From the IMG/VR virus record IMGVR_UViG_3300022187_000041, positions 1 to 51,200 of that record: a DNA stretch of 51,200 nt; one strand, given 5' to 3'. This document shows, one piece after another, positions 1-51,200 of this stretch (positions within the stretch are counted from its first letter, which is position 1; each line of letters begins with the position of its first letter). The notes under the pieces are model-generated. The model was not told the DNA's origin. It worked only from the letters and a program-made list of their open reading frames with translations, and made no database searches. The translations under genes were made by a program, and so were the position numbers. Origin of the DNA: a virus (lineage: Duplodnaviria; Caudoviricetes).

Positions 1-3000
1 ATACTGCGTTGGATAGTGTTGAGGCTGGTGGTACTTACAACGTAGCTGTTGGAGATGCTGCTGGTACGGCAATAACAACGGGCGATAACAATGTAGCAGT
101 TGGCGCAGATGCACTTTTACTTAACAGTTCAGGCGGCAGTAATACTGCATTGGGGACGAGTTCGGTAAGAAGCAACACAACAGGCGCAAATAATGTTGGG
201 TTAGGGCAAGCCGCTCTCTACTCCAACACCACCGCCAGCTACAATACTGCCACAGGTTATCAGGCGGCTTACTCCACCACCACAGGAGCTTACAACACTG
301 CATTTGGCTATCAAACTTTACTAGACAATACTACAGGTTATGCTAATGCGGCTTTTGCGGCTGACGCAATGGGCAACAATACTACTGGTTTTGACAATAC
401 CGCTTTGGGTAATGCGTCAATGTTCCAGAACACAACAGGGTCGTACAATGTTGCCTTGGGCCGTGCCGCCTTGCAGAACAACACCACCGCATCCAACAAC
501 ACGGCTGTTGGGTATCAGGCGGGGTATAGTAATACTACTGGTGCTTTAAATACCGCTGTCGGACAATCTGCGCTGTTTAACAACACCACCGCATCTAACA
601 ACACATCAATTGGTCGAGCATCCATGTTTGACAATTCAACAGGCGCAAGTAACGTTGCTGTGGGTTCTGGTGCATTGGCTGATAATACCACTGGCTCTTT
701 TAATGTGTCTTTGGGTATGGAGTCTATGCGTCTTAACACCACCGCCAGCAACAACACAGCCGTTGGGTATCAGGCTGGGTATGCGAATACGAGCAATGGT
801 GCAGGTACGTTTATTGGAAGTTTTGCTGGATATACAAGCGTTGCCGCCGATACAACAGCAGTCGGTTCATATACTTTGTATGCGGCGAACACAGGCACTG
901 CAAATGCGGCATTCGGTAAACAGGCTTTGTATGCAAATACATCTGGTGGATTTAATTCAGCCATTGGTTCTTTTTCGCTGATTTCTAATACAACAGGCAG
1001 TTATAACACGGCTTTGGGTAACGGTGCATTAACTAACAACACCACCGCCAGCTACAACACTGCCGTTGGTTATCAGGCTTTATATACAGGTGATACACAC
1101 TCTGGTGTGACTGCAATCGGCTATACTGCACTAAAAAATAACACAGGTAATTTGAACTTTGCTGGTGGTTATGAAACCCTTTTGGGTAACACCTCTGGGG
1201 CGAACAACACGGCAGTAGGCGCTCAGGCTCTACGCTCCAACACCACCGCCGACAACAACGTGGCCGTTGGGTATCGTGCTTTAGAGGACAATACAACAGG
1301 TGCAGGAAACACAGCTTTAGGTACTATTGCTTTACCTAATAACACAACTGGTGCTGATAATGTTTCAATCGGCCACCTTTCTATGGGAGATACCTCGACA
1401 GGTAGTTATAACGTAGCCGTGGGTAAACAAGCACTCACAGCCAACACCACCGCCAGCAACAACACTGCAGTTGGGTATCGGGCGCTTTATCTTAATACAA
1501 CAGGTGCAGAAAATGTAGCTTTGGGTAACTTTGCAGCGGATGCCATGACTACTGGAGTAGAAAACACTGCACTAGGTTACGCTAGTTTATCTGGAACTAC
1601 TACTGGTAACTACAATACCGCTGTCGGCAAAGCAGCACTACAAAACAACACCACCGCCAGCAGCAGCACTGCTGTCGGGTATCAAGCTGCGTATAGCAAC
1701 ACAGAACAAATTGTAACAGCGTTTGGCTATAAAGCAGGTTATACTCAATCTGGAGGAACTCCCGGGTCAAACACTTGGATCGGCTATCAAGCGGGTCTTT
1801 CTGCAACAACAGGTGGAGCGAACACCGCAGTTGGCCGTGAAGGTTTGGCATCAACAACAACAGGTGCATACAATACCGCAGTCGGGGCTGAAGCGTTAGA
1901 AAATAACACCACCGCATCCAACAACACTGCCGTTGGTTATCAGTCACTGTACGATAACACTACTGGTGTAAGAAACTCTGCTTATGGAGATAACTCTTTA
2001 GCTAATAATACCACCGCTAATAACAATAATGCTTTTGGTTACTTGTCCTTGCACACAAATACTACTGGCACAGCAAATGTGGCTATGGGTACAGAGGCTT
2101 TATTCTCCAACACCACCGCAAGCAACAACACAGCATTGGGGTATCAAGCTGGGTATGCAAACACTACTGGTTCAGACATAACAGCTATTGGCTATCAGGC
2201 TCTTGATAGCAATACGACAGGTAACTACAACACGGCTATTGGCCTTTCTGCCTTACAATCAAATACGACAGCCAATAGCAACACTGCGGTTGGTCGCAGA
2301 GCCATGTTTAGCAATTCCACTGGCAGTGATAATGTTGGTCTTGGGTATCATGCTATGTATTCTAATACCACAGGCAGCTCTAACACAGCTTTTGGCGCAC
2401 AAGCACTCCTTTCCAACACCACCGCAAGCAACAACACCGCAGTTGGCTATCAGTCTATGGACGCTAATACTACAGGAGTTAGCAATACTTCTGTGGGGGG
2501 CAGTTCTTTAGGCGCAAACATTACTGGTAATAGTTTAACAGCCATTGGCTCAAATGCTTTACTTGTCAATACAACATCAGGCAATACTGCGGTAGGTTCT
2601 AACGCTGCTTATAATAACACGTCAGGACGTATAGACGCTTTTGGAGTAAATGCTGCTTATAATAACACCACAGGTAATTACAACAGTGCCTTTGGTCAGC
2701 AAAATGGTTTCTTAGCGGCACTTCAAAGTAACACCACAGGCAGTTCTAATGCGGCTTTTGCAACAGGTGCGTTGGGAAATACTACCACAGGCAGTTCTAA
2801 TACGGGGATAGGTGTAGCTGCTCTTTACTCCAACACCACCGCAATCAATAACACTGCAGTTGGGTATCAAGCTGGGTATTCCCAATCAGGTGCAGGAAAT
2901 GGTAACACCTTAGTTGGTTATCATGCGGGGTATACTGGAAACAGTTTTATTGACGCTAGTGCAAACAATACGATGATTGGCAATCAGGCAGGGCTTTCAG

Positions 3001-3689
3001 CAACTACAGCCATTAAAAACACGTTTGTTGGTCAGTTTGCAGGGGGTAATGTAACAACTGGATACAATAACACCATCCTTGGGCGTTATGACGGCAACCA
3101 AGGCGGCTTGGACATCCGCACCTCAAGCAACAACATCGTACTGTCTGATGGGGATGGTAATCCTAGGGTTTATATTCCCAGTAGTGGCAGTATGGCTGTA
3201 GCAACTACTGTATTTGATACTGCAAATACCACAGGTATCACTCTTCAGAAGTATTCTAATGGCGCATATATAACAATTGGTAAAACAAGTAGTGCAGCAA
3301 ATGGAGAAGGTTATATTAACTTTCATAGAAATGGAAGTAATATTGGAGGTGTAACACAGGCCAGTACTTCTTCTGTATCTTACAACACTACGTCCGATTA
3401 TCGGTTAAAAGAAAACGTGGTCAACCTTGAGGGAGCCACTGCAAGATTAGTGCAGCTACAGCCAAAAAGATTTGAATGGATTAGTGACACAGATGGTGCT
3501 GTTTGGGATGGCTTCTTAGCACACGAAGTTCAGTCAGTTGTGCCAGAAGCAATCACAGGCACAAAAGATGCAGTCGATGCAGACGGTAATCCAAAATACC
3601 AAGGCATTGACCAAAGCAAGCTAGTGCCACTCTTGGTCGCTACGATCAAAGAACTAGAGGCACGGATCACTGCCCTAGAAAACGCTTAA
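1..3689 (+). CDS. Tail fibre, 5'-truncated, with about 14-aa N/T/G/A-rich repeats and C-terminal peptidase S74 intramolecular chaperone
   Basis: Frame open from window start (TALDSVEAGG...); repeats NTTG/NTTASNNTAVGYQ; C-terminal SDYRLKENV...GFLAHEVQSVVPEA...LVPLLVATIKELEARI. Confidence 0.9.
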   Translation, partial: TALDSVEAGGTYNVAVGDAAGTAITTGDNNVAVGADALLLNSSGGSNTALGTSSVRSNTTGANNVGLGQAALYSNTTASYNTATGYQAAYSTTTGAYNTAFGYQTLLDNTTGYANAAFAADAMGNNTTGFDNTALGNASMFQNTTGSYNVALGRAALQNNTTASNNTAVGYQAGYSNTTGALNTAVGQSALFNNTTASNNTSIGRASMFDNSTGASNVAVGSGALADNTTGSFNVSLGMESMRLNTTASNNTAVGYQAGYANTSNGAGTFIGSFAGYTSVAADTTAVGSYTLYAANTGTANAAFGKQALYANTSGGFNSAIGSFSLISNTTGSYNTALGNGALTNNTTASYNTAVGYQALYTGDTHSGVTAIGYTALKNNTGNLNFAGGYETLLGNTSGANNTAVGAQALRSNTTADNNVAVGYRALEDNTTGAGNTALGTIALPNNTTGADNVSIGHLSMGDTSTGSYNVAVGKQALTANTTASNNTAVGYRALYLNTTGAENVALGNFAADAMTTGVENTALGYASLSGTTTGNYNTAVGKAALQNNTTASSSTAVGYQAAYSNTEQIVTAFGYKAGYTQSGGTPGSNTWIGYQAGLSATTGGANTAVGREGLASTTTGAYNTAVGAEALENNTTASNNTAVGYQSLYDNTTGVRNSAYGDNSLANNTTANNNNAFGYLSLHTNTTGTANVAMGTEALFSNTTASNNTALGYQAGYANTTGSDITAIGYQALDSNTTGNYNTAIGLSALQSNTTANSNTAVGRRAMFSNSTGSDNVGLGYHAMYSNTTGSSNTAFGAQALLSNTTASNNTAVGYQSMDANTTGVSNTSVGGSSLGANITGNSLTAIGSNALLVNTTSGNTAVGSNAAYNNTSGRIDAFGVNAAYNNTTGNYNSAFGQQNGFLAALQSNTTGSSNAAFATGALGNTTTGSSNTGIGVAALYSNTTAINNTAVGYQAGYSQSGAGNGNTLVGYHAGYTGNSFIDASANNTMIGNQAGLSATTAIKNTFVGQFAGGNVTTGYNNTILGRYDGNQGGLDIRTSSNNIVLSDGDGNPRVYIPSSGSMAVATTVFDTANTTGITLQKYSNGAYITIGKTSSAANGEGYINFHRNGSNIGGVTQASTSSVSYNTTSDYRLKENVVNLEGATARLVQLQPKRFEWISDTDGAVWDGFLAHEVQSVVPEAITGTKDAVDADGNPKYQGIDQSKLVPLLVATIKELEARITALENA
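225..2880 (+). repeat. 13 dispersed copies of a nucleotide cassette AAC ACC ACC GCN AGC/TCC AAC AAC ACN GCN GTT GGN TAT CA within the tail fibre
   Basis: ACCACCGC at 228, 483, 585, 738, 1041, 1242, 1446, 1650, 1908, 2010, 2112, 2418, 2835; the flanks vary more than the octamer. Confidence 0.9.
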
Positions 3690-3716
3690 TCGTAAAAGTC
3701 AGAAAAGGAGAAAGAC

Positions 3717-3965
3717 ATGACTGATACACCAACTGCGGAAGAAATCGCACAACACTACACAGCAATGGGTCACTCCGTTGATCTAATCAACGACATCGTT
3801 GCTGGAAACCAAGATGACGACATGGAAGCGGCAGACCGTCAGGACACAGTTGACCGTAACGTAGAGCATCTTCAGTTAATGGTTGCTAAAGACTTTTGGA
3901 CTGACGAAGATATGACAGCGGCAAATGCTGCTATTACTTCAGGCAACGGTTACACAGCCTCTTGA
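3717..3965 (+). CDS. Hypothetical protein downstream of tail fibre (possible fibre assembly factor)
   Basis: Strong RBS AAGGAG; acidic 82 aa; position. Confidence 0.75.
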   Translation: MTDTPTAEEIAQHYTAMGHSVDLINDIVAGNQDDDMEAADRQDTVDRNVEHLQLMVAKDFWTDEDMTAANAAITSGNGYTAS

Positions 3966-3990
3966 CAAATATCTTTTATTGAGATATAAT
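3962..3990 (+). promoter_or_regulatory. Sigma70-type promoter, perfect consensus
   Basis: TTGACA (3962-3967), 17 bp, TATAAT (3985-3990), at a gene boundary. Confidence 0.85.
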
Positions 3991-4037
3991 AACGTAGCAT
4001 CTTGAATGCATAACTATAACAAATAAGGAAAATGATC

Positions 4038-4265
4038 ATGGGAAAAAATGAAAAAACCCCTATCACTATCAACGAAAAAGAATACTTTATTGAGGACTTG
4101 ACAGACGAGCAAAAAACTATGCTCAATCATGTTCAAGACCTAGACCGCAAGTTAGCTAACGCTAGGTTTAATCTAGATCAACTTGCTATCGGACGTGAAG
4201 CATTCATAAACATGTTATCCAATTCTGTAGAAACAGAAGAGCCACAAGAAGAAGAGGCAGCTTAA
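4038..4265 (+). CDS. Hypothetical coiled-coil protein
   Basis: RBS AAGGA; ORF track 4032-4265, start refined by RBS spacing. Confidence 0.75.
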   Translation: MGKNEKTPITINEKEYFIEDLTDEQKTMLNHVQDLDRKLANARFNLDQLAIGREAFINMLSNSVETEEPQEEEAA

Positions 4266-4267
4266 CT

Positions 4268-4510
4268 ATGTCAGTAACCCCAGAAGAACTAGAAGCTATG
4301 CTGGATCGGGCAGCTAAAAAAGGTGCAGCAGAAGCTTTACGCTCTCTGGGGTTACAAGACGAAAGTGCAGCAAATGATATACGTGACATGCGTAGTTTAA
4401 TTGATGCATGGAGAATGACTAAGAAAAGCATATGGGCTACTACAGTTAAACTTGGTACAGTAGCCGTGTTAACTTTTATAGCTACAGCAGTATGGATGTC
4501 TTTTAAGTAA
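4268..4510 (+). CDS. Small membrane protein, DUF6127-like (possible holin)
   Basis: PEELEAMLDRAAKKGA..ALRSLGL.DE.A..DIRDMRSLIDAWR plus C-terminal TM helix. Confidence 0.65.
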   Translation: MSVTPEELEAMLDRAAKKGAAEALRSLGLQDESAANDIRDMRSLIDAWRMTKKSIWATTVKLGTVAVLTFIATAVWMSFK

Positions 4511-4540
4511 ACACATAATCTAAGCTCTGGGGAGATGCTT

Positions 4541-5002
4541 ATGATAGATCCAGTAACTGCTATTGCAGGTGCTACCGCTGCCTTCAATGCCATTAAGAAA
4601 GGCATACAGGTAGGCAAAGATATACAAGACATGGGTGGTACTTTAGCTAAGTGGTCTGGCGCATTGGCTGACTTAGATTTTGCTGATAGGCAAGCACAAC
4701 AACCACCGTGGTATAAGGCTTTAGGTGGTGGCGTAGAAGCTCAAGCGATGGAAATATTTGCAGCTAAAGAGAAGGCTGCAGCTATGCGTAAAGAATTAAA
4801 AGATTTTATTTCAGTTTACTATGGCCCGTCTAAGTGGCAAGAGATACTTGAAATAGAAGCAGATCTCAGAAAACAAAAAAAAGAACACGAACACAGAAAG
4901 ATTGAAATACAGAGAACTATAATGGAATGGACTGCAGGTATCGTACTCTTTTTAGTCTGCTCAGGTGCTCTCTTCGGTTTTGTATGGATAGGAACTAGAT
5001 AA
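4541..5002 (+). CDS. Hypothetical membrane-anchored protein
   Basis: MIDPVTAIAGATAAFNAIKKG N-terminus, C-terminal TM helix; RBS GGGGAG. Confidence 0.75.
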   Translation: MIDPVTAIAGATAAFNAIKKGIQVGKDIQDMGGTLAKWSGALADLDFADRQAQQPPWYKALGGGVEAQAMEIFAAKEKAAAMRKELKDFISVYYGPSKWQEILEIEADLRKQKKEHEHRKIEIQRTIMEWTAGIVLFLVCSGALFGFVWIGTR

Positions 5003-8000
5003 ATGAAAACGTTCAAAGGCTTTACTAATCAGCAGACCCATCAACTCCTCAAAGAGATGGGCTTCACAGGCCCAGCGCAGAAGGATGAGATGGATGCGTT
5101 TCTTGCGTCTAGCCCTAGTGCAGCATCTAAGATAGGCCGTTACGCTGAGATAGCTAAGCAACGTGTAGAGGGTGGCCCTTTGTCTGGCATGGGGTTTGCT
5201 CAAGGTGATCTTGTAGAAAAAGTTAAAGATCCTAATGAATATACTGCTGTGTCTAGAATAACACCTAATGTATCTACTGACGTTGGAACAATAGAAAATA
5301 GTAATTTTACAGGAGAAACAGGTAATTTATTAGACCCTAATGCTTCTATAGATTCTTCTAAAGCTACTACACCTAGTTATAAATTTACATATGATCAAGC
5401 TGTAGCCCGTCAAGCTCAGAGAGATGTAAAGTCACCTGAGGAAGCTAGAGCTATTCAGATAGCTTTAGATATGGGACCAGATGCTATACCTGCACCTGAA
5501 GGATCTGAAGTATTATCTGTAGGTACAGCTTCACCTGAAACTACTCAGCCCTCTATAGACTTAGACACTGCACAGCAATCCTATAGTGACGCTATGGGTC
5601 AGCTTACAGAAGCACAGAAAGCTCTGACTAATGTTGAGATGCCTGAGGGTTCTTCTATTGATCCAGCAACAAATAGACTACCTAATGCTTCTTACGAACA
5701 GATACTAGAAGAGGTTGGACCTTTTACTAGTGATTTTGATTCTTATGTAGGAGATTTTAAGCCTTTTGAGGTTGATGATTTTAAGTCTTTAGTGGCTAGT
5801 GGCAATATTCCAGAAGACCCTAGTGATTACGAGATAGAACCTCTAGGATCAGAGGGAATTAACAAGAAGTTTTTAATAAAGTACCCTAATGGTCAATCTA
5901 TAGAGTACTCAACTTATAGTGCTGCCGTGGCTAATAGTGCACCAGATATAGCTAGTATGTTTGCTCAAGGTCTTAATCAGGCTAAAGATAGTAAAATATA
6001 CAGGGAAACTAATAATTATAACCAGCTTCTTACTGACGTAGAAAATGCTGATGAATTAGTTACACAAACAGGGGCTGACGTAGCCACTAAACAAAAGCAG
6101 TTTGAAACTACAGACATACCTTCTACGAGTGAAGCTCTAGGTAAAGCTATTACTACCCCTAGCTCTGTATTGCAGAAGCCTACTGTGTATGGCTTGAAAG
6201 TAGAAGACGATCAGCTTATTGATGAAGATACTGGACAGGTAGCTACAGCCGCTTCACTCTTAGTTAAGCAAGCACAGGCTGCAGATGCAGTGGAAGACCC
6301 TGCAGTTAAAGCTACCTTAGCTTATTTAAGTGGTTTGACTGAAGAAGAGAAAGCTTCTAAGTACCCTATGCCTAGCCCACCTGAGGGTAATTGGGGTGGC
6401 TTTCTAGGTTTATTTTTTCAAGAGCCTGATGCTGATGCAATTAAAGAATATAATGATGCAGTAGCTGGGGTACACGCTCGTATTGAGCAAGACGCTATTA
6501 AGTCTCGTGCAGAAACATATACTGCTGTTATGTCACAGGATAAAGTTAAGACTGCACTAGAAGACTTTGCTGCAGCTACAGGTACACCATCCAGTGATGC
6601 TTTAATGAAAGCAGAAACGATGCTACCTGAAGATCTAGCCCAGCTAGACTTAGATGCAGAAACGCTAGACATTATACGTGAAATCCCTGAGGTCAAGAGG
6701 ACATTAGATGCAGGTGAAGTACCGACTGCAGCTTTATTTGATGAGTATACAAAATCGGAAGCCGCAGAGTTTGAAGGCGAAGTTGGAGAGGTTGACCCAG
6801 CTAAGTTTGAAACTGAAACTCCTAAGGCAGAAGCTGAAGTAGACTACAACCTACCACCTAGTGAAGTAGCGGAAGTAGAGAAAAGTAAAGTAGAAGATGC
6901 CGCTAACTTTAATGAATACGCTACAGCAGAAGAAAAGAAGTCTGAGTTTGTACCTGAGATTACTGCAGAAGAAACTGCTGTAGGTGATGAAGAGATTGTT
7001 GATGTAAATAATATCATTAACAGTGAAGAAGTAATCGTAGCAGGTAAAACTCTAGAAGCTTTAAACGAAGCGTCTACCGCTAAGGCTGCAACTGCTACCT
7101 TCACTCAACAGTTAGCCGCTAAAGCAGTCAAGGGTGAAGTAAGTGCTGCATCTACTGTGCAGTTCCAGATGGAAAAACTTATGAAGTCCTTTGATGATGG
7201 GACACCCGCATGGGCGGCTGGAGCTTTACGTAAAGCTAATGCAGCTATGAATGCTCGTGGGTTAGGCAATAGTTCTATGGCTGCTGCTGCAATTATCCAG
7301 GCTTCACTAGAAAGTGCTATCCCTATAGCTCAACAGGATGCAGCTACATTTCAAGCTATGGATATGGAGAATGTCCGTAATGAGCAAGCCGTAGCTCTAG
7401 CTAATGCTGCTGCAGCACAGAACTTTGAGTTAGCTAACTTGTCAAACGAACAGGCTACACGTATTCAGAACAGCATGAACAATGCTAATCTCCAGTTAAA
7501 GAACTTATCTAACGAACAAGAAGCTGTACTTGCTACTGCACAATTCAAGGCTGCACTGTTAGGCCAAGAGCTTGACATTAGTGCTAACGTAGCGATTGCT
7601 AATGCTGCACGTTATGCTGCAGTCAACGATATTAACTTGACAAACAGACAGCAAACCTCTATACTTAAATCTACACAGAACTTAGAAGTAGAGATGGCTA
7701 ACCTGTCTAACTCACAGCAGACAGCCTTGTCTAACTTACAAGTTAAAGCTGCCATGATGGGCCAAGAGTTGACTAACGAGCAACAGATGGCTGTACTAGA
7801 GAGTACACAGGCGTTTGAGACTAACATGCAAGACGCTACCATGAGGCAGCAAGCGTTTATCCAAGATGCTGTAGCTCGTGCAGCTATGGAAGGCCGTGTC
7901 TTAGATAACAAGCAACAGACTGCTTTGTTCAACGTGTCTAACGCTGTAGCTGAACGTGAGATAGAACTCAATAACGAACAGCAAACAGCTATCTTCAACA

Positions 8001-18045: not shown

Positions 18046-19119
18046 TTAAGTTAGATCTACTACTTCACATACATCACCAGTACAAGCCATAGTCTGCATT
18101 GCAACAGTGTTGTCTTCTTGTTCATAGTCAGAGAGCTTACTCCAATTAATCTTCTCTGGCATAGAACTTAATAATACTTCATACTCTTCCTTTGTGCAAT
18201 CCTGATATGGAGCTTGCTGATAAGTATGATCTGAGTGTGGCAAGAAAGACACACCTGACATCTCGTCAAAGTGCTCATACACAAACGCACCTACATGCAT
18301 CCACTCATAGTCACGCACTGATATAGTCACGCTAGGTTTGTGCTCACACCAATGACGCTGATAGGTAAGCCAAAGATCTAGTTGCTCTAGGGCTGTCATA
18401 TCATTACGTGTTACCGCACCTGCAGGTGACTTCTGTGGGAAGCTGAACACAGTAGTTGTATCACCCTTCATAACGCATGGCTCATTAGGAATACCTTGAT
18501 CCTTCATAAGCTGTGTTAGTGGATCTTTGTTATCACCACGGACAGTACGGATATAATAGGGACTATGGCGAGCATGTATCCCAGAGGCTGAATCCACCAA
18601 TTGTGATACCGTACCCGAAGGTTTGACGCATGTAATCGCAGCAGCCACAGGTATACCAAGACGGTCAGCCCATTCAGCATTAGTAGCCACAGCAAGGGAA
18701 CGTAGGTGCTCAAGTGTTTTCTCCAATCCTCTATTCTCATGTGTCATTAAGGGGTTGTCCATTATTCCTGTAAGCGACACACCCAACAGACGCTCTTCTT
18801 CGGTGTTCTTGCTCCACACCTTACGCAAGTATGGAAACTTTGTGTAGGCCGACTGGATTGTTCCAAGGATTGTTGCGATGCGTACCTTGCCTTCCAAGTT
18901 TTCAATAGTATCTGTGGCACGTACAACAACTTCCGTAAGATTACAGAACTGGTACGGACGCAAGATAATCTCGCTGCACGGGTTAGTCCCAAACTCATGG
19001 TGAGGGTCACGTCTACCATTCTTTGCAGCCTGTACTTTACTTGCCTGACGATTGAATACACCACGTTCTCCTGACTTGCTTTCTACTAGGGCTTGCCACT
19101 CACGCATGAACGTTTCCAT
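18046..19119 (-). CDS. nrdJ: Class II (B12-dependent) ribonucleotide reductase, C-terminal fragment
   Basis: TNPCSEI, FCNLTEV, TCVKPSGTVS, EHKPSVT, C-terminal ACTGDVCE; frame opens at 19191 (GQWWETAAHRALANNS). Confidence 0.9.
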   Translation of the reverse strand: METFMREWQALVESKSGERGVFNRQASKVQAAKNGRRDPHHEFGTNPCSEIILRPYQFCNLTEVVVRATDTIENLEGKVRIATILGTIQSAYTKFPYLRKVWSKNTEEERLLGVSLTGIMDNPLMTHENRGLEKTLEHLRSLAVATNAEWADRLGIPVAAAITCVKPSGTVSQLVDSASGIHARHSPYYIRTVRGDNKDPLTQLMKDQGIPNEPCVMKGDTTTVFSFPQKSPAGAVTRNDMTALEQLDLWLTYQRHWCEHKPSVTISVRDYEWMHVGAFVYEHFDEMSGVSFLPHSDHTYQQAPYQDCTKEEYEVLLSSMPEKINWSKLSDYEQEDNTVAMQTMACTGDVCEVVDLT

Positions 19120-20678: not shown

Positions 20679-21023
20679 TTAAGCATTCCCTAAAGTCTTA
20701 GTAAACCTAGTAAGTTTCACAACCTTACCGTCTGTCCCTTCTACCTCTTCATACATCTCTTTTACGTCATTGTCAAGACCCATTACTTCATTTCTGTAAT
20801 CTTCTACCTCACGATATAAGTCTTCATCATCCTGTGCCATCTGTAAGAAAGCACCCATGAGTGTAGCTAAGTGAATGAGGTAGGCTAGATCCTCTACGCA
20901 CATCTTATTGTTTTCACCTACGATTAAACCTGTAGCTAACTCTCCTGTCCAATCCCCTTTTTTGTCAAACTCTACAGGTGATAGTATCAGTGCAACTTCA
21001 TCTTCTTCTATTGTGCGTGTCAT
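20679..21023 (-). CDS. Hypothetical protein
   Basis: ORF track; overlaps neighbours. Confidence 0.75.
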   Translation of the reverse strand: MTRTIEEDEVALILSPVEFDKKGDWTGELATGLIVGENNKMCVEDLAYLIHLATLMGAFLQMAQDDEDLYREVEDYRNEVMGLDNDVKEMYEEVEGTDGKVVKLTRFTKTLGNA

Positions 21024-21475
21024 TTCTTTATCTTCTCCTTTAGGGTTATCGTCTTAGCTTTAATAACTCTACCCTTTTCTTTGAGCCATTCTTCGGGTAT
21101 CACACGGTGCGCCCATATGAAACCATTCTTGTCACACCAATTGCAGTACCTAGTCTTTGATCCCTTGTAAAGCTTAGCCATAGAGTTACTAAACACAAAC
21201 CTTATGTCTAGCTCAGGGTGTTGCTTACGTACCTCTAAGTGCTTACGTCTGTCCTCACTATCAAAGATACCCTTAGTCTCAATGATGATACCATTGTCTA
21301 GCATAAAGTCAGGCGTATAAGTTCTATATCTCAAGTCTTCCCATTCAATCTTTAGAACCTCGTACCTGACTTTACTTTGCTTATCCTTTAGATACTCAGC
21401 TACTTCTCTTTCAAGACCGCTGCGGTATCGTCTAGAATTATGTCTTCTCTGTTTCTTCACTGGCAATTGATACAT
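21020..21475 (-). CDS. Endonuclease I (T7 gp3-like Holliday junction resolvase)
   Basis: YRSGLE, YTPDF.L.NGIIIETKG.F...DRRKH, P.LDIRFVF. Confidence 0.92.
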   Translation of the reverse strand: MYQLPVKKQRRHNSRRYRSGLEREVAEYLKDKQSKVRYEVLKIEWEDLRYRTYTPDFMLDNGIIIETKGIFDSEDRRKHLEVRKQHPELDIRFVFSNSMAKLYKGSKTRYCNWCDKNGFIWAHRVIPEEWLKEKGRVIKAKTITLKEKIKK

Positions 21476-22313
21476 ACTCTACTGTTGGGGGTGTCTTACC
21501 ACCTTTGTAAACTTTAGAAGGCAGAGCCTGTAAGTCAGGCCAGCATTTGTTCTTGTAGTCACACCATCCACACGTCTTGCATAGCTTCATGTTACCACTA
21601 GCCTTGCCTCTGTATGTCTCAGGCACAGCCTCAAAGCAGCGCTCAAAGGGTTTGTCTTTGTCTATGTAGTCATAGGTTTCCTCTATCTTTTCTAGTACGT
21701 GATCTGTATCAGCCTCACTAGCGGAGACATACTTAAAGTCACCGTTAACTTTGTTAATTACCCACCAGCCACCGACTCCTTTGTCTGCTGCCTTAGCGTA
21801 ACCTACAAGCTGTGACACATAACCAAACGTGTCATCACTGTTGAGGGTATGGAAGTCATTAAACTTATTCTCGTATGACCAAGGAGAGGCAGACTTAATA
21901 TCATCTACCTTACCGTCAAGCACCATGTCGTACTCTCCGCTAATCTCCTTACCGTTACCTAAGTCTAGTGTAACCCTGTCGTTACCTTGGAAGTGTACCT
22001 TAGCACCACGAAGGATACCCTTGAACACAGCCTCTACTATATCGCCTATCAACATGTTAATCTTGAAAGACACAGGCTTAGCTTCCGCTACATCAGGGTG
22101 GTTCTTCTGCATCCACAACTGACAGGTAGGACGCCCAATGTTGGACATCCTTAGTTTAAACTCACGTTTCTTTGCGTCATCCTGGAACTGTTTAGTAAGA
22201 GCTTCCTGCACATCAGCAGCTACCTCTGCGATAACTGGTGCTGGCATAGAAGCCTTACCGTCTAGGACATCACGAAGAAAAGAGTGTACTGCTATCTCCG
22301 CTACATGCTGCAT
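21438..22313 (-). CDS. PD-(D/E)XK exonuclease (Cas4-like fold)
   Basis: LRMSNIGRP.CQLW, GEYD...DDIKS, QL.GY, C..C.YK..CW. Confidence 0.8.
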   Translation of the reverse strand: MQHVAEIAVHSFLRDVLDGKASMPAPVIAEVAADVQEALTKQFQDDAKKREFKLRMSNIGRPTCQLWMQKNHPDVAEAKPVSFKINMLIGDIVEAVFKGILRGAKVHFQGNDRVTLDLGNGKEISGEYDMVLDGKVDDIKSASPWSYENKFNDFHTLNSDDTFGYVSQLVGYAKAADKGVGGWWVINKVNGDFKYVSASEADTDHVLEKIEETYDYIDKDKPFERCFEAVPETYRGKASGNMKLCKTCGWCDYKNKCWPDLQALPSKVYKGGKTPPTVEYVSIASEETEKT

Positions 22314-28351: not shown

Positions 28352-29150
28352 AGGCCAGCTTCCTCAGTTCATCTAAGTCCTCAGGCCTCTCGTACTTCAA
28401 GTCATCCTGTAAGTACAACGCATAGCTAGGTAGACCTGTCCACATCTCTATCTCTTTCTTGTAGCTCAACGTCTTCTGTAAGGCATCAGGGTCAAGCGCA
28501 ACGATAACCTTTGTTGCGTTGTCTTGTATATACTCTAAGTGTTTATCTGTCAAGCTAGTCCCAAGTATAGCAAACCCAACCGAATTGGGTAGCTTCTTAG
28601 CCACAGTGATAGCACTGATGACATCCTCTACCACAACGTAGACACTGTTACGGTCAGACATAGAGCGTACATAATAGTCTGCACTACCACCATACCTGTA
28701 CCACTTTGGTATAGCACCATCAAGAGCACGTCCAATAGCATCAACAACAGTACCATTGTGTACGATAGGAAACACCGCACGTTTATCTTTCACGTCATAC
28801 ATTAATGACTCACCAGCTAAGACAGGCCATCGCTGCTTGAACCTACGCATGGTAGCATTGCCCTCTGTAGTGATATGTTCTGGATAAACAAAGGGCTGTA
28901 ACTCTTTGTTATCACTGGATGATTCTAGTAATGGTTTCACGAAGTAACTCTCCAACTCTGCTCGTGTCATGTCTGTGTCGAACCTACCGCCAACATCACA
29001 GGCTAACTTGAAGCAGTTGTACTTCAAGACACCCATCTCCATCGATGCAGTAAAAGTATTCTTGCTGTTGCAAAACGGACAGTCACCACGATGCGGCCCG
29101 TTAATTGCCATCTCTTCTGCGTACTGCCTGTGTTGCTGCCAGATAGTCAT
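28323..29150 (-). CDS. DNA primase (zinc finger plus TOPRIM)
   Basis: CPFC...NCFKLAC; VVED; LGTS; ALDPDA. Confidence 0.9.
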   Translation of the reverse strand: MTIWQQHRQYAEEMAINGPHRGDCPFCNSKNTFTASMEMGVLKYNCFKLACDVGGRFDTDMTRAELESYFVKPLLESSSDNKELQPFVYPEHITTEGNATMRRFKQRWPVLAGESLMYDVKDKRAVFPIVHNGTVVDAIGRALDGAIPKWYRYGGSADYYVRSMSDRNSVYVVVEDVISAITVAKKLPNSVGFAILGTSLTDKHLEYIQDNATKVIVALDPDALQKTLSYKKEIEMWTGLPSYALYLQDDLKYERPEDLDELRKLAYEEQDKPYG

Positions 29151-30076
29151 TCTTTCTCCTTGAATGCACTGCGCTGGGCTAGTGCTTCTGATGCACCAGT
29201 AAAGGTGTGCTTGATGTAAGGCGTAAGGCTTTGGATGTTGACGTGTCCACTGACTTGTTTGATCTGCGTGATGTCAACACCTGCCTCTACCATCTCAGTG
29301 ATAGCAGTACGGCGCATGTCCATAGCGGTTAACTCTTTAGGTAGACCTGCCTGTTCTTTGATCTGATTAACATACATGTGTAGCTTAGCCTTAGCGTAAG
29401 GGCTATGCACGTTGTTGATCTTCTTTGTTCGGGGTGCTACGTATTCCTGAAAGCCAAACCGTTCTTTCTGCTCTACAAGAATACTCCTAAGCCCATCACT
29501 GATAGGTAAGTGTACGTCTGCACCTCGCTTGCTCTGCGTTAAGTCCATGCGGCTGTTCTCTAGATCTAATGCACCCCATGTAAGTAAACGCATGTCACCT
29601 ACACGCTGGCCCCACTCATATGCCATGTGTACAATCAACCCAATAGAGTATCCTGTCCACTCACTGTAAGCGGTAAGCAGGAAAGCCTTTACTTGCTCAG
29701 GCTCCCACGTAACCTTGCGAGGTGGGTTAGGTACACGATCCATGTGCGGTACTGGATTGACTATACGTATGCCTAGACCTATGGCTTTGTTAAGTACGAT
29801 GGACAGTATAGCCGCAAGCTTGTTAGCTCTAGGTATACCATTCTTGATCCACTCATCATACGCAGCTTCTACCTGTGTAGTGGACATGTTCCTAAGTAGA
29901 ACACCACCTAGATCCCTACGCACAACTTTTAAGTTAAGGTAGTACTCCTTCTGTGACGTAGGTGAGAGGTTACGGTAAGACTTACTATCAAGGTAGTAGT
30001 CAATCAAAGTGCTAAGCCTTGAGTCTTCTGTAGGTTTCTTCACCATTTCTTTCTTGTCTTCCAGTATACCCAGCAT
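29147..30076 (-). CDS. int: Tyrosine recombinase / integrase
   Basis: GQRVGD (R), QSKRG (K), DMRRT, VSGH, PY catalytic Tyr; alternative start 30046. Confidence 0.9.
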   Translation of the reverse strand: MLGILEDKKEMVKKPTEDSRLSTLIDYYLDSKSYRNLSPTSQKEYYLNLKVVRRDLGGVLLRNMSTTQVEAAYDEWIKNGIPRANKLAAILSIVLNKAIGLGIRIVNPVPHMDRVPNPPRKVTWEPEQVKAFLLTAYSEWTGYSIGLIVHMAYEWGQRVGDMRLLTWGALDLENSRMDLTQSKRGADVHLPISDGLRSILVEQKERFGFQEYVAPRTKKINNVHSPYAKAKLHMYVNQIKEQAGLPKELTAMDMRRTAITEMVEAGVDITQIKQVSGHVNIQSLTPYIKHTFTGASEALAQRSAFKEKE

Positions 30077-30255: not shown

Positions 30256-30340
30256 CGTCTATACCCTTCCACATGAAGTAGATGAACCCACCTACATAGG
30301 CTATGAGGAAGGGTATTACTATTTGTGAACCTGCTACCAT
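30242..30340 (-). CDS. Small membrane peptide (32 aa), not in ORF track
   Basis: MVAGSQIVIPFLIAYVGGFIYFMWKGIDDDDT; fills gap. Confidence 0.55.
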   Translation of the reverse strand: MVAGSQIVIPFLIAYVGGFIYFMWKGIDDDDT

Positions 30341-50516: not shown

Positions 50517-51200
50517 GTGGCAGGTTATGTAAGACAATCTACAGCAGACATCATCCCCACCGCTACAGTTCGTGCGGCCCCAATTAACGCAGAGTATAAC
50601 GCACTCCGTGATGCTTTTGCTGCATCTGGTGGTCATAAACACGATGGTACTTCAGGTGAAGGTGAGTATGTTCCTCTTATTGCAGACTTGGATGCTCTCA
50701 ATAAAGTAGTAATTGATACAACAAACAATCGTGTAGGTGTATTCGTAGAGGTAAGCGCTGCTGCTGTTGAGCAGATACGCATACAAGATGGTGTTATTGT
50801 TCCTGTCACAGATAACGACATCGACTTAGGTACATCTTCATTAGAGTTTAAAGATCTGTACTTAGATGGTACTGCTTACATTGATACACTAGCAGTCCAC
50901 GAATCTGCTACCATCACATCAAACTTTTCAGTAAACGGTAATACTACTCTTGGTAATGCTGCATCTGACACCGTTACATTTACTGCAGACATTGCTTCTG
51001 CTATGCTTCCTTCTGCTGACAATACGCATGACTTAGGTGCTGTAGGCTCTGAGTGGCGCAACTTGTATATTGATGGTACAGCTAACATTGACGCACTTAT
51101 AGCTGACACTGCAACAATAAGCGCAGGTACAATTGATAATACAGTTATTGGGGGTAGTACAGCAGTCGCAGGTAGCTTTAGTACTATTAATTCCTCAGGT
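50517..51200 (+). CDS. Tail fibre N-terminal part, 3'-truncated, not in ORF track
   Basis: RBS AGGAG, GTG start; MAGYVRQS...INAEYNAL..AF....GHKHDGT.GEG; DLG.SSLEFKDLYLDG repeats; open to window end. Confidence 0.85.
   Translation, partial: MAGYVRQSTADIIPTATVRAAPINAEYNALRDAFAASGGHKHDGTSGEGEYVPLIADLDALNKVVIDTTNNRVGVFVEVSAAAVEQIRIQDGVIVPVTDNDIDLGTSSLEFKDLYLDGTAYIDTLAVHESATITSNFSVNGNTTLGNAASDTVTFTADIASAMLPSADNTHDLGAVGSEWRNLYIDGTANIDALIADTATISAGTIDNTVIGGSTAVAGSFSTINSSG

What the first reader, a model, noticed from the sequence alone, without database searches (positions are those of the whole stretch)
228..2842. Thirteen co-oriented Chi-like octamers written into synonymous codons of the tail-fibre repeats: a candidate host-recombination-driven fibre shuffling system
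Seen: 13 of the 14 NTTA repeats are encoded ACC ACC GC (ACCACCGC at 228, 483, 585, 738, 1041, 1242, 1446, 1650, 1908, 2010, 2112, 2418, 2835; the exception near 2262 is ACG ACA GCC). None of the roughly 20 interleaved NTTG repeats I read uses ACC ACC before Gly; they mostly use ACA/ACT, as the rest of this genome does. By eye I found the octamer only three other times in the window (25963, and 39474 and 44080 in the opposite orientation), so the DNA, not just the peptide, is constrained. Knowledge (from memory, verify): the reverse complement GCGGTGGT is the Chi sequence reported for AddAB of the alphaproteobacterium Caulobacter crescentus. Inference: all copies face the way needed for AddAB entering from the structural-arm end of the linear genome. 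Each sits in a conserved block of about 40 nt separating divergent modules of 100-400 nt. The phage may use host Chi/AddAB/RecA to focus crossovers at module borders and reshuffle its receptor-binding fibre, without an invertase or reverse transcriptase.
Basis: partly seen in the sequence, partly recalled or inferred. Interest (0 to 1): 0.88.

Follow-up and report, generated by a model that had tools for sequence, protein, structure and literature searches.

The report
Conserved junction blocks in tail fibre
A marine phage's tail-fibre gene repeats a 42-base block whose silent codon positions are frozen and spell a recombination signal known from a distant bacterium, but the likely hosts' genomes show no sign of using that signal, so the blocks are better read as shared homology joints for swapping fibre modules.

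Summary
ACCACCGC occurs 13 times, in frame and co-oriented, in the fibre ORF (3..3689). Thirteen of 14 N-T-T-A units are ACC ACC GC, against 0 of 27 x-T-T-G. A codon-shuffle null gives a mean of 1.0, and 0 of 20,000 shuffles reach 13. ACC is only 9% of Thr codons elsewhere in the phage. The reverse complement is indeed the putative Caulobacter AddAB Chi (PMC5443536).

The constraint is wider than the octamer. In 39 canonical units from 10 roseophage-type fibres, a ~42-nt block is frozen at some silent sites (AAC 35/39, ACC 36/39 and 35/39, AAC 21/21 and 35/36, TAT 34/34) and free at others.

The host-Chi reading fails its tests:
- One complete Rhodobacteraceae genome shows no leading-strand polarity (23:26) and no excess (52 observed, 50 expected).
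- A Planktomarina (RCA) genome shows no polarity beyond a compositional control.
- The octamer is not enriched outside the fibre in this phage, CRP-1 or CRP-7.

Near-identical tracts shared with other phages lie between blocks. In metagenomes the blocks carry 25-60 times the depth of the flanks.

Best reading: shared homology anchors for module exchange. A true Chi array remains possible at about 0.12.

The parts
3..3689 (+). Tail-fibre ORF, 5' end cut by the contig start (1228 aa shown). It carries 51-nt (17-codon) repeat units of NTTG and NTTA type and a C-terminal Peptidase_S74 chaperone domain.
225..266 (+). NTTA junction block 1 (AAC ACC ACC GCC ...); octamer at 228-235
480..521 (+). NTTA junction block 2; octamer at 483-490. 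In metagenome contigs many records share only 479-520 and diverge on both sides.
582..623 (+). NTTA junction block 3; octamer at 585-592
735..776 (+). NTTA junction block 4; octamer at 738-745
1038..1079 (+). NTTA junction block 5; octamer at 1041-1048
1239..1280 (+). NTTA junction block 6; octamer at 1242-1249
1443..1484 (+). NTTA junction block 7; octamer at 1446-1453
1647..1688 (+). NTTA junction block 8; octamer at 1650-1657
1905..1946 (+). NTTA junction block 9; octamer at 1908-1915. Loose ends of metagenome contigs lie at 1905 and 1948.
2007..2048 (+). Variant block 10 (NTTANNNNAFGY); octamer at 2010-2017. The matching unit in relatives is ACC ACT, ACC ACA or ACA ACA.
2109..2150 (+). NTTA junction block 11; octamer at 2112-2119
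2262..2303 (+). The one NTTA unit without the octamer (AAT ACG ACA GCC)
2415..2456 (+). NTTA junction block 12; octamer at 2418-2425
2832..2873 (+). NTTA junction block 13; octamer at 2835-2842
333..469 (+). Tract of 137 nt with one mismatch to IMG/VR locus L027 (a phage fragment of 55% G+C). It lies between block 1 and block 2. The right border is about 10 nt before block 2, and the left border is at the NTTG unit that starts at 327.
1685..1885 (+). Module 90-100% identical (30-nt windows) to L009, lying between blocks 8 and 9
1905..2120 (+). Module 83-97% identical to L045, from block 9 to block 11
3049..3171 (+). Conserved DNA anchor without an octamer, 78-90% identical in L009, L045, CRP-7, CRP-1, L027 and L022. 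Metagenome word depth is 3055-5285 in the four runs, against 13-54 in the next bin (3201-3400).
3172..3652 (+). Variable distal cassette with no nucleotide match in the relatives. It holds the Peptidase_S74 domain (aa 1131-1184, about nt 3393-3554).
3653..3935 (+). Second conserved anchor (end of the fibre gene plus the next small ORF), 78-82% identical in L045, CRP-7, L009, L027 and CRP-1
50517..51200 (+). ORF running off the contig end, a weak tail-fibre match (phrog_25747, E 3e-6). It may be the head of the same fibre gene, but the frames do not join and it has no similarity to the heads of the L009 or CRP-7 fibres.
21438..22313 (-). Cas4-like PD-(D/E)XK exonuclease, a candidate phage recombination function
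21020..21475 (-). Phage endonuclease I (junction resolvase family)
29147..30076 (-). Tyrosine integrase, far from the fibre gene and not a candidate for the direct repeats

Best explanation
The 13 octamers are the most invariant part of a nucleotide block of about 42 nt, (TCC) AAC ACC ACC GCN AGC/TCC AAC AAC ACN GCN GTT GGG TAT CAR GCN. This block opens every NTTA-type unit of a hierarchical tail-fibre repeat.

Shown: particular silent positions of the block are held fixed across at least 10 related fibre genes, while neighbouring silent positions drift freely. The block uses codons that are rare in the phage. It is present, at 90% identity or more, at 25-60 times the depth of its flanks in four metagenome runs. 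Tracts recently exchanged between phages lie between blocks.

Inferred: the blocks serve as short shared homology anchors. General homologous recombination between fibre genes of co-infecting phages, and between units of one gene, starts or ends at these anchors. The machinery would be host RecA and/or the phage's own exonuclease and endonuclease I. Modules of 100-400 nt are thereby swapped without breaking the reading frame. Lineages that keep the common block keep access to the shared module pool.

The identity with the Caulobacter Chi is then a by-product. Coding T-T-A with C-ending codons inside a tract that is almost only A and C on the sense strand (G/T-rich on the other strand) spells that octamer.
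For: (1) The constraint is real and site-specific. In 39 canonical NTTA units of 10 fibres the counts are AAC 35/39, ACC 36/39, ACC 35/39, AAC 21/21, AAC 35/36, TAT 34/34, GTT 25/33 and GGG 26/39. Ala, Ser and the later Thr columns are free (entropy 1.5-1.8 bits). The 51 NTTG units of the same genes are free: AAT 27 against AAC 24, first Thr 1.94 bits.

(2) The block's codons are rare in the phage: ACC 9%, TCC 5%, GGG 8%, GCC 9%. They are also minor in a 44% G+C Planktomarina genome: ACC 21%, AAC 34%, TCC 11%. Codon bias therefore does not explain them.

(3) The constraint is not recent duplication or within-gene conversion. Codon identity is 0.540 between blocks within a phage and 0.507 between phages, and 189 of 2000 permutations reach that difference.

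(4) Mosaicism. Window 333-469 matches L027 with 1 mismatch in 137 nt, although L027 has 55% G+C and the window about 43%. Segments 1685-1885 (L009) and 1905-2120 (L045) are 83-100% identical. Identity falls to 20-50% beyond the flanking blocks.

(5) In four metagenome runs, word depth in the bins holding blocks is 184-2897, against 13-94 in the poorest unique bins. Many contigs share only 479-520 or 1905-1948 and diverge on both sides.

(6) The same gene uses octamer-free conserved anchors (3049-3171 and 3653-3935) around a variable distal cassette. Anchoring does not need the octamer.

(7) Eleven of the 17 tracts in the window with at least 21 of 24 A+C or G+T on one strand are these blocks.

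(8) In 50,697 phage records the block is found in only 3. Two are RCA roseophages (CRP-1, CRP-7). The third is a spring-water podovirus whose single block reads ACC ACT GC.
Against: No recombination event was observed directly, so selection for exchange is an inference of the evolvability kind.

If homology length were the target, every silent site of the block should be fixed. Instead, sites about every 12 nt are free, which leaves exact runs of 8-14 nt unless the alleles agree.

One border of the best recent tract (about 332) lies at an NTTG unit, 55 nt from a block. Local alignments tend to end in conserved blocks anyway, so the border evidence is weak. Only three tracts were examined.

An exact 8-of-8 match to the only experimentally supported alphaproteobacterial Chi is improbable by chance. 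My estimate is 1e-3 to 1e-2 after allowing for the windows, strands and motifs a reader could have recognised.

The window is a metagenome assembly that breaks inside this gene. Module order and the count of 13 could be partly chimeric. Independent contigs from four runs match 1040-1467 and 1450-1934/1942 with at most one differing letter.
Confidence: 0.45

Rival explanations
1. One reading: the octamers are functional Chi sites for the host's AddAB. AddAB entering upstream of the fibre gene and moving in the direction of transcription would meet 5'-GCGGTGGT-3' on the - strand from its 3' side. It would then load RecA on a 3' tail whose first 30 nt or so are the conserved block, focusing crossovers at module borders.
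For: The octamer matches exactly the putative Caulobacter chi, for which an array of 15 copies slowed AddAB in one orientation only (PMC5443536, passages). Alpha-type AddB scores over the family cut-off in a Planktomarina genome and in G001. ACC ACC GC is kept in roseophage-type fibres: CRP-1 4 of 5 TTA, CRP-7 2 of 4, L009 6/12, L022 5/9, L027 4/4, L035 6/7. It is not kept in fibres of pelagiphages (0/6, 0/5), a Methylophilales phage (0/2) or low-G+C relatives (0/15, 0/12, 0/12, 0/8, 0/8). Phages that rely on many co-oriented host Chi sites exist (LLS, MD8; PMC12315714, passages). No annealase was recognised in the phage.
Against: In a complete Rhodobacteraceae chromosome, sampled as 40 stretches of 20 kb, the octamer lies 23 times on the leading and 26 times on the lagging strand. 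In the same sample GGGCAGGG is 98:10 and GCGCTGGG 84:21. Observed count is 52 against about 50 expected under two Markov models, and about 7,050 octamers are more frequent.

A Planktomarina MAG holds 72 copies in 2.4 Mb, one per 33 kb. They are co-oriented with the polar word GGGCAGGG 40:21. The strand share is 61%, against 65% for the reversed control word.

The octamer is rarer than its reversed word in 23 of 23 Planktomarina and 118 of 121 Rhodobacteraceae genomes. This comparator is weak, because the same holds in 143 of 151 alphaproteobacteria (6 higher, 2 ties), with no clear positive case.

Outside the fibre the copies are 2 + 2 in this window, 1 in CRP-1 and 2 in CRP-7. Those in CRP-1 and CRP-7 lie on the strand opposite to the fibre copies. 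The fixed silent sites extend to AAC AAC and TAT, beyond any octamer. No sub-word of the block is in excess in G001. Known AddAB Chi sequences differ even among Firmicutes (recalled), so sharing between Caulobacterales and Rhodobacterales is not expected.
Confidence: 0.12
2. There is no function. The block is a piece of DNA that spread recently through the phage pool by horizontal transfer and repeat expansion. The fixed silent sites have simply not yet mutated, or mutate slowly, and the free ones are mutational hot spots.
For: The block's codons look foreign to the phage. Very recent transfer between phages of different G+C is documented by the 137-nt tract. Blocks within a phage are no more alike than blocks of different phages, as expected for a well-mixed pool.
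Against: Silent sites 1-12 nt from the fixed ones are at or near saturation with three or four alleles. Ser switches between AGC and TCC, which needs at least two steps. Flanking silent sites are saturated (Leu 2.5 bits). The same sites are fixed in 10 fibres whose proteins are only 41-60% identical to the window's in their best segments. A site-specific drop in mutation rate of that size has no known cause.
Confidence: 0.18
3. Translation-level selection: a fixed pattern of codons at the start of each super-repeat sets the local elongation rate. C-ending codons for Ser, Asn and Thr are followed by GTT GGG TAT. This would help co-translational folding or register of the trimeric fibre.
For: Both C-ending codons and the minor codons GGG, GTT and TAT are fixed at defined positions of a structural repeat. 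The pattern is specific to the unit that starts each super-repeat.
Against: A Thr four codons downstream in the same unit, and all Ala, are free. NTTG units have equally invariant N, T, T and G residues but no codon constraint. Whether ACC and AAC are major or minor codons differs between candidate hosts (G001 40% and 59%; Planktomarina MAG 21% and 34%). Low-G+C relatives show no comparable pattern.
Confidence: 0.12
4. The fixed positions are contacts of an unidentified sequence-specific ligand of the DNA or the mRNA. This could be a phage or host protein or a small RNA that is not AddAB. It could also be RecA's general preference for G/T-rich strands, a reading recalled from Tracy and Kowalczykowski 1996 and not seen here.
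For: The pattern of fixed and free positions resembles a gapped motif: AACACCACCGC, then 4 free bases, AACAACAC, one free base, GC, one free base, then GTTGGGTATCA. The antisense strand of the first 25 nt is almost purely G and T. Eleven of the 17 such tracts in the window are these blocks.
Against: No candidate ligand is known. No conserved RNA structure is predicted: consensus energy is -0.19 kcal/mol with 4 weak pairs. ACA would keep the antisense strand G/T-rich but is used in only 1 of 39 units. The motif is confined to one gene.
Confidence: 0.1

Closest known systems
Chi-rich phages without a recombination module (E. coli phage LLS, P. aeruginosa phage MD8; Genome Res 2025, PMC12315714, passages read)
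   Same: These phages carry many copies of a host-Chi-like octamer, nearly all in one orientation. The idea is the same: the phage borrows the host's helicase-nuclease and RecA.
   Different: In LLS 20 of 23 Chi sites, and in MD8 32 of 32, are spread over many genes and cluster towards one DNA end. The octamer is the proven or predicted Chi of the host. Here all the co-oriented copies sit in one repeated coding unit of one gene. Outside it there are 2 + 2 copies. The octamer shows no Chi-like statistics in the likely host family.
Putative Chi of Caulobacter crescentus, 5'-GCGGTGGT-3' (PLoS Genet 2017, PMC5443536, passages read)
   Same: The eight bases are identical, read on the strand opposite to the fibre's coding strand. 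Alpha-type AddAB is present in the candidate host family.
   Different: That octamer was predicted from its skewed distribution on the Caulobacter chromosome and slows AddAB there. In the two Rhodobacteraceae genomes tested it is neither skewed beyond a control nor in excess.
Conserved-motif-mediated exchange in T-even tail-fibre and adhesin genes: His boxes of gp37 (Tetart et al. 1998, recalled) and glycine-rich motifs of gp38 (PMC3157838, search listing and abstract only)
   Same: Short conserved sequence motifs separate variable segments of a receptor-binding protein gene. They are thought to act as crossover points that reshuffle specificity by ordinary homologous recombination.
   Different: Here the motif is a 42-nt block inside a regular 51-nt repeat. 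It occurs at least 13 times in one gene, and specific silent sites are demonstrably fixed across phages. The family of fibres (Peptidase_S74-tipped NTTG/NTTA repeats of marine podoviruses) is unrelated.
Shufflons and invertible tail-fibre segments (R64 Rci/sfx; Mu Gin, P1 Cin, p15B Min; recalled)
   Same: Several short repeats lie inside a receptor-binding gene and allow segments to be rearranged.
   Different: Those repeats are inverted and are cut by a dedicated site-specific recombinase encoded next to them. Here all copies are direct. No serine invertase is found, and the only tyrosine recombinase is a distant integrase.
Diversity-generating retroelements (recalled)
   Same: They give targeted diversification of a phage receptor-binding protein.
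   Different: They need a reverse transcriptase and a template repeat. No RVT_1 match is found in the record, and the variation here is modular, not adenine-specific.

Membership tests
Chi site of a RecBCD/AddAB-type enzyme | The sequence is identical to a Chi shown to act on the enzyme of some organism | tested here: met
   GCGGTGGT is the putative Caulobacter chi, and an array attenuated AddAB-dependent processing in one orientation (PMC5443536). That paper itself says a recombination hotspot was not shown.
Chi site of a RecBCD/AddAB-type enzyme | The host encodes the matching enzyme | tested here: met
   TIGR02786 (addB_alphas) scores over its cut-off in Planktomarina MAG G126 (812 bits) and in G001 (743 bits). 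The true host of this window is not known.
Chi site of a RecBCD/AddAB-type enzyme | The sequence is over-represented in the host chromosome | tested here: not met
   In the G001 sample of 800 kb, 52 copies are observed against 49.8 and 49.9 expected, and about 7,050 octamers are more frequent. G126 holds 72 copies in 2.4 Mb. The octamer is rarer than its reversed word in 23/23 Planktomarina and 118/121 Rhodobacteraceae genomes. That comparator has no positive control.
Chi site of a RecBCD/AddAB-type enzyme | The sequence is co-oriented with replication (leading-strand polarity) | tested here: not met
   In G001 the count is 23 leading to 26 lagging, with GGGCAGGG 98:10 and GCGCTGGG 84:21 in the same sample. 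In G126 the octamer is 40:21 relative to GGGCAGGG (61 of 72 sites assignable). Its strand share is 61%, against 65% for the reversed control.
Chi site of a RecBCD/AddAB-type enzyme | It acts on the enzyme in an orientation-dependent way and stimulates recombination | not testable with these tools
   This needs a resection or recombination assay in a roseobacter. The physical ends of the phage DNA are also unknown, because the contig is broken in the fibre gene.
Chi-rich, Rec-module-less phages (LLS class) | Many co-oriented Chi sites spread over the genome and clustered towards one end | tested here: not met
   Thirteen of 17 copies are in one repeat family of one gene. The other four are 2 on each strand. 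CRP-1 has 4 in the fibre and 1 elsewhere, and CRP-7 has 2 and 2.
Chi-rich, Rec-module-less phages (LLS class) | No phage recombination genes | tested here: inconclusive
   A Cas4-like PD-(D/E)XK exonuclease and endonuclease I are present. No annealase or RecA-like protein was recognised among the ORFs scanned. Several small ORFs were not scanned.
Conserved-motif anchors for tail-fibre module exchange | Conserved nucleotide motifs bound variable segments of a receptor-binding gene | tested here: met
   Blocks of about 42 nt are spaced 102-417 nt apart. Octamer-free anchors at 3049-3171 and 3653-3935 flank a variable cassette.
Conserved-motif anchors for tail-fibre module exchange | Mosaic tracts between phages have borders at the motifs | tested here: inconclusive
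   Three tracts were examined. Five of six borders lie within about 20 nt of a block or inside one, and one (about 332) lies at an NTTG unit. Alignment ends are biased towards conserved blocks, and there are too few events for a test.
Conserved-motif anchors for tail-fibre module exchange | Crossovers at the motifs are observed experimentally | not testable with these tools
   This needs mixed infections or long-read population data. The joints in the laid contigs come from other fibre genes or repeats and do not count.
Shufflon / invertase system | Inverted crossover sites and an adjacent dedicated recombinase | tested here: not met
   All 13 copies are direct. No Resolvase-family match is found. 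The integrase lies 25 kb away.
Diversity-generating retroelement | Reverse transcriptase with a template/variable repeat pair | tested here: not met
   There is no RVT_1 match in the 51.2-kb record. The record is 93% complete.

The most novel reading that the evidence does not exclude
The array is a working recombination signal written into silent codon positions. It could be a true Chi for the AddAB of the (still unidentified) host, or a G/T-rich RecA-loading and pairing tract. Placed at the head of each homology block, it would make double-strand-break repair start crossovers exactly at module borders of the receptor-binding fibre. That would be a built-in, enzyme-free way for a phage to direct host recombination to its host-range gene.
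Probability: 0.12. Interest if true: 0.85.

Novelty: new variant of a known kind. Interest (0 to 1): 0.5.

Why it matters
Tail-fibre mosaicism is usually inferred from protein comparisons. Here the DNA shows that particular silent sites of a short repeated block are kept identical across a whole pool of marine phages, while their neighbours drift. This is a measurable signature of selection on the nucleotide sequence at module borders of a host-range gene.

If the blocks are recombination anchors, they give a concrete, testable handle on how abundant ocean phages (RCA roseophages of the HMO-2011 type) re-sort receptor-binding modules. They also suggest a design rule for engineering modular fibres.

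If the Chi reading were right after all, it would be the first case of host recombination hotspots placed inside a receptor-binding gene. It would also extend the Caulobacter Chi to another order.

The negative result matters as well. An exact match to a published Chi is not evidence of Chi function unless the host genome shows the expected excess and polarity.

Tried and rejected
RNA structure: RNAalifold on 26 block-centred 66-nt stretches gave -0.19 kcal/mol and four weak pairs. I rejected this idea. The relatives' units in that alignment were chosen to contain the octamer, so its invariance there is by construction.

Codon bias: the block's codons are rare in the phage and mixed in the candidate hosts. 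Rejected as a sufficient cause.

Codon-pair and restriction avoidance: CCGG avoidance (6 observed, 36 expected) explains why ACC is never used before GGN. GCTAGC avoidance (0 observed, 11.7 expected) explains the rarity of GCT before AGC. Neither forces ACC ACC before GCN, because ACN GCN four codons downstream uses all variants.

Concerted evolution within a gene: codon identity is 0.540 within and 0.507 between phages, and 189 of 2000 permutations reach that difference. Not significant.

Host identification:
- ARAGORN finds no tRNA in the window.
- The integrase region (28200-31800) has no DNA match in 23 Planktomarina genomes.
- The block pattern, with one mismatch allowed, gave single hits in 18 of 401 Rhodobacteraceae genomes, against 11 hits for the reversed control. 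That is background, with no arrays.

The host therefore remains inferred from kinship to the CRP phages and from the mSystems 2019 paper (PMC6918029, passages).

Abundance against the reversed word: the reversed word is commoner than the octamer in 143 of 151 alphaproteobacterial genomes too (6 higher, 2 ties). No genome shows a clear excess (my reading of the table). This comparator has no demonstrated power, so I rely on the Markov and polarity tests instead. I had no handle for a Caulobacter genome, so the polarity test lacks a Caulobacter positive control.

Place listings of the genome search for large contigs turned out to be incomplete for the reverse strand when checked against my own sample of G001. 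I did not use them for polarity. The G126 listings (72 and 87 rows) were complete and were used. Eleven of the 72 sites were dropped because they lie on contigs without a clear GGGCAGGG orientation.

Metagenome joints: 15 are listed and 263 are not shown. Sides are 20-36 letters at 90% likeness. They run from just after one block to just before another. By the tool's own warning they come from other fibre genes or repeats, so they are not evidence of deletion variants of this phage. All runs were Logan contigs, and no raw reads were available.

ORF 50517..51200 has no significant similarity to the heads of the L009 or CRP-7 fibre ORFs. Its link to the fibre rests on one weak PHROG match.

Literature: a full-text search for the octamer returned 1,532 papers, and the 20 listed looked like primer matches. 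I found no paper describing Chi-like octamers or fixed silent sites in roseophage or pelagiphage fibre repeats in searches. Supplements were closed and may hold Chi counts for Caulobacter or fibre details for the CRP phages.

Full report
WHAT THE WINDOW IS. The window is a whole IMG/VR virus record of 51,200 bases. It is classed as linear, and CheckV estimates it at 93% complete.

Its ribonucleotide reductase region is 74-76% identical in nucleotides to Roseobacter phages CRP-13, CRP-207, CRP-345, CRP-4 and CRP-1. The end of its fibre gene and the gene after it are 84% identical to CRP-7. It encodes terminase, portal, major head protein, DNA polymerase, helicase, ThyX, MazG, a tyrosine integrase, a DNA methyltransferase, a Cas4-like PD-(D/E)XK exonuclease and endonuclease I.

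This gene set and the 43% G+C fit the HMO-2011-type phages of the Roseobacter RCA lineage. The describing paper gives phage G+C of 40.3-49.7% and host G+C of 50-53% (PMC6918029, passages). The host of this particular record is not known.

ORF 3..3689 runs off the start of the contig. The last ORF (50517..51200) runs off its end and is a weak tail-fibre match, but the two frames do not join. The assembly therefore broke inside or beside the repeats, and the real DNA ends are unknown.

THE OBSERVATION. ACCACCGC occurs 17 times on both strands, against 0.65 expected.

Thirteen of 14 NTTA units carry the octamer, and none of the 27 x-T-T-G does. The second Thr before Gly is never ACC. Shuffling synonymous codons within the gene gives 1.0 copies on average, at most 6, and 0 of 20,000 shuffles reach 13.

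Outside this gene ACC is 9% of Thr codons. Before GCN it is used 4 times in 63. A Thr four codons further on in the same units uses ACT 7, ACA 3, ACG 1 and ACC 1. Neither general codon usage nor a Thr-Ala codon-pair effect explains the pattern.

THE CONSTRAINT IS WIDER THAN THE OCTAMER AND IS SHARED BY RELATED PHAGES. Forty-six related loci came from IMG/VR and seven from named phages.

In fibres from contigs of 43-55% G+C, T-T-A is ACC ACC in L009 6/12, L022 5/9, L027 4/4, L029 4/4, L035 6/7, L045 2/4 and L040-L044 1/1 each. It is ACC ACC in the isolates CRP-1 4/5 and CRP-7 2/4, but in CRP-831 0/1.

The pattern is absent or rare elsewhere:
- Contigs of 31-41% G+C: L016 1/11, L017 0/15, L021 0/8, L024 0/12, L025 0/8, L026 0/12, L028 0/8, L031 1/8, L033 0/6, L034 1/9.
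- Pelagibacter phages HTVC112P 0/6 and HTVC111P 0/5.
- Methylophilales phage Venkman 0/2.
- A spring-water podovirus of 51% G+C, 0/2.

I pooled the 39 canonical units (NTTA[ST]xx[TV]AxG) of 10 roseophage-type fibres. The silent sites fall into two classes.
- Fixed: Ser-1 TCC 15/19, Asn0 AAC 35/39, Thr1 ACC 36/39, Thr2 ACC 35/39, Asn5 AAC 21/21, Asn6 AAC 35/36, Tyr11 TAT 34/34. Less strictly fixed are Val9 GTT 25/33 and Gly10 GGG 26/39.
- Free: Ala3 (GCA 20, GCC 15, GCT 2, GCG 2), Ser4 (AGC 22, TCC 11, others 5), Thr7 (four codons, 1.82 bits), Ala8 (1.79 bits), Ala13 (1.53 bits).

The 51 NTTG units of the same genes have equally invariant N, T, T and G residues but no such fixation: AAT 27 against AAC 24, and the first Thr at 1.94 bits. 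The 31 canonical units of the low-G+C group show none either.

The unit of conservation is therefore a block of about 42 nt in which the octamer is the longest fully fixed run. The fixed codons TCC, ACC, GGG and GCC are each 5-9% of their families in the rest of the phage.

Blocks within one phage are no more alike than blocks of different phages: 0.540 against 0.507 codon identity, with 189 of 2000 permutations reaching that difference.

IS IT THE HOST'S CHI? 5'-GCGGTGGT-3' is the putative chi of Caulobacter. It was predicted computationally (Jensen 2006, seen only as reference 43). It is supported by orientation-dependent slowing of AddAB at an inserted array of 15 copies. The authors note that a recombination hotspot was not shown.

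I obtained named Rhodobacteraceae loci with a 16S probe pattern. Alpha-type AddB is present in a Planktomarina MAG (G126) and in the complete chromosome CP138932.1 (G001).

G001. I sampled 40 evenly spaced stretches of 20 kb from G001. GC skew places the origin near 2.75 Mb and the terminus near 0.9 Mb. In the 36 stretches (720 kb) kept after dropping the four that lie at the skew turning points, the octamer lies 23 times on the leading and 26 times on the lagging strand.

The same script recovers polar words: GGGCAGGG 98:10, which resembles the FtsK-orienting sequence, and GCGCTGGG 84:21. The octamer's count of 52 on both strands matches Markov expectations of 49.8 and 49.9. About 7,050 octamers are more frequent. 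No 5- to 8-mer contained in the fixed parts of the block is in excess (observed/expected 0.92-1.15). Their strand bias is the generic one of C-rich words.

Planktomarina MAG G126. This genome belongs to the genus of the RCA hosts. The stretches I fetched are 44% G+C. There are 72 copies in 2.4 Mb. I used the complete listing of GGGCAGGG as a guide to the leading strand: 87 copies against 26 for its reversed control, and strongly polar per contig. I tallied by hand 40 octamers with it and 21 against. Eleven on contigs without a clear orientation were dropped. The share on the assembly's reverse strand is 61% for the octamer, 65% for the reversed control word and 72% for GGGCAGGG. The octamer therefore has no polarity beyond that of its composition.

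Abundance. The octamer is rarer than its reversed word in 5 of 5, 118 of 121 and 23 of 23 genomes. The same is true of 143 of 151 alphaproteobacteria (6 higher, 2 ties), with no clear positive case. I give this comparison little weight.

The phages themselves. Outside the fibre the octamer occurs twice on each strand in this window. It occurs once in CRP-1 and twice in CRP-7, on the strand opposite to the fibre copies. This is unlike the Chi-rich phages LLS and MD8.

Taken together, the two defining statistical features of a Chi in its host genome were tested and not met. The biochemical feature could not be tested.

WHAT THE BLOCKS DO INSTEAD. Nucleotide comparison with the relatives shows a mosaic.
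- Window 224-551 is 87.5% identical to L027 and L029. Within it, 333-469 has a single mismatch in 137 nt, although L027 has 55% G+C.
- Window 1575-1966 is 81.6% identical to L009, with 90-100% identity in 30-nt windows over 1685-1885.
- Window 1905-2221 is 84.6% identical to L045.

Along the same diagonals identity falls to 20-50% beyond the flanking NTTA blocks, which are themselves 70-87% identical. Five of the six borders lie in or within about 20 nt of a block. One lies at an NTTG unit.

The distal part of the gene repeats the design without any octamer. A variable cassette (3172-3652) holds the Peptidase_S74 chaperone domain. It lies between two segments conserved at 78-90% in six relatives.

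The best holders of this sequence are runs labelled freshwater metagenome, with marine runs at lower shares. In four such runs the word depth is 1335-2897 in bin 401-600. It is 3055-5285 in bin 3001-3200. The poorest unique bins have 13-94.

Many contigs share only 479-520 or 1905-1948 and then diverge on both sides. Because these contigs are built from 31-letter words, exact identities of 31 nt or more between different fibre contexts must exist in those communities.

Independent contigs from the four runs reproduce 1040-1467 and 1450-1934/1942 with at most one differing letter. This supports the assembly across blocks 6 and 8 but not everywhere.

The sense strand of the first 25 nt of a block is 78-89% A+C in 12 of 14 units. 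Eleven of the 17 such strand-asymmetric tracts of the window are these blocks.

In 50,697 phage records the block is found in three: CRP-1, CRP-7 and the spring-water podovirus. In the last it is 50/57 identical but reads ACC ACT GC.

MECHANISM, WITH ODDS. At 0.45 I take the blocks to be shared homology anchors. Their conservation, their sharing across a phage pool and the between-block position of recent exchanges are shown. That selection keeps them for the sake of exchange is inferred. Which recombination machinery uses them is also inferred: host RecA, or the phage exonuclease and endonuclease I.

The main weakness is that free silent sites interrupt the block about every 12 nt. A pure homology-length argument does not predict this.

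The rivals are a true Chi array (0.12), a functionless, recently spread block (0.18), a translation-rate pattern (0.12) and an unknown DNA or RNA ligand, including RecA's recalled preference for G/T-rich strands (0.10).

I estimate its chance probability at 1e-3 to 1e-2, after allowing for the windows, strands and known motifs that could have been recognised. Given the rule of C-ending codons seen in this part of the block, T-T-A yields the octamer automatically.

COMPARISON AND NOVELTY. The block array works most like the conserved-motif crossover points of T-even fibre and adhesin genes. It is not a member of the Chi-rich phage class, a shufflon or a DGR on the features tested.

What is new is the demonstration of position-specific fixation of silent sites in a repeated fibre block across a natural phage pool. 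I found no description of it in the searches made. Supplements were closed.

I rate it a new variant of a known kind, with interest 0.5. The signal is real and unexplained in detail. The most exciting interpretation failed the tests that could be run.

Noticed in passing
whole window: There is very strong avoidance of short palindromes. CGCG is 0 (47 expected), CCGG 6 (36) and TCGA 20 (42). CAGCTG, GGTACC, GCTAGC, CTTAAG, CCATGG and CACGTG are all 0 (9-14 expected). This looks like restriction-site avoidance. It explains why ACC is never used before GGN and why GCT is rare before AGC in the fibre repeats.
   Followed up: partly
window 18046-19119 (-) and 19155-19919 (-): The ribonucleotide reductase is in two adjacent ORFs. 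They match positions 353-698 and 33-292 of the same PHROG profile. CRP-7 also has its reductase annotated in pieces with an ORF between them. This could be a split gene, an intervening element or a frameshift.
   Followed up: no
G001 (CP138932.1), sample of 40 x 20 kb; G126, G002-G004: In a Rhodobacteraceae chromosome the most polar octamers are GGGCAGGG (98 leading, 10 lagging) and GCGCTGGG (84:21). GCGCTGGG is also commoner than its reversed word in four further genomes: 87 v 49, 343 v 252, 595 v 354 and 513 v 411. It is a candidate for the family's own Chi-like or other polar signal.
   Followed up: partly
window 333-469 and L027 6667-6803: A 137-nt tract with a single mismatch is shared between this 43% G+C phage and a viral fragment of 55% G+C. 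It implies very recent short-patch exchange between quite different phages.
   Followed up: partly
window 3049-3935: The distal fibre cassette (3172-3652, with the Peptidase_S74 domain) is unique. The segments on both sides are conserved at 78-90% in six relatives and carry about 50-100 times the metagenome depth of the cassette. This is a classic layout for cassette replacement.
   Followed up: partly
window 1-3 and 50517-51200: Both ends of the contig lie in tail-fibre-like ORFs whose frames do not join. The assembly probably broke in the repeats, and part of the fibre gene, possibly with more blocks, is missing.
   Followed up: partly
G126 (Planktomarina MAG), loci L236-L241: The 120 kb fetched from this Planktomarina MAG is about 44% G+C with A/T-ending codon preferences. 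This is well below the 50-53% reported for the cultured RCA hosts (PMC6918029), so the genus spans a wide G+C range.
   Followed up: no
window 27715-28230 (-): A small ORF gives weak homing-endonuclease or endonuclease PHROG matches (E 2e-5 and 2e-3) beside stronger matches to families of unknown function.
   Followed up: no
sequencing runs X1-X13: The runs that hold most of this fibre region are labelled freshwater metagenome. Marine and seawater runs hold a quarter to a third of its words. The habitat label sits oddly with the kinship to coastal RCA roseophages and leaves the host open.
   Followed up: no
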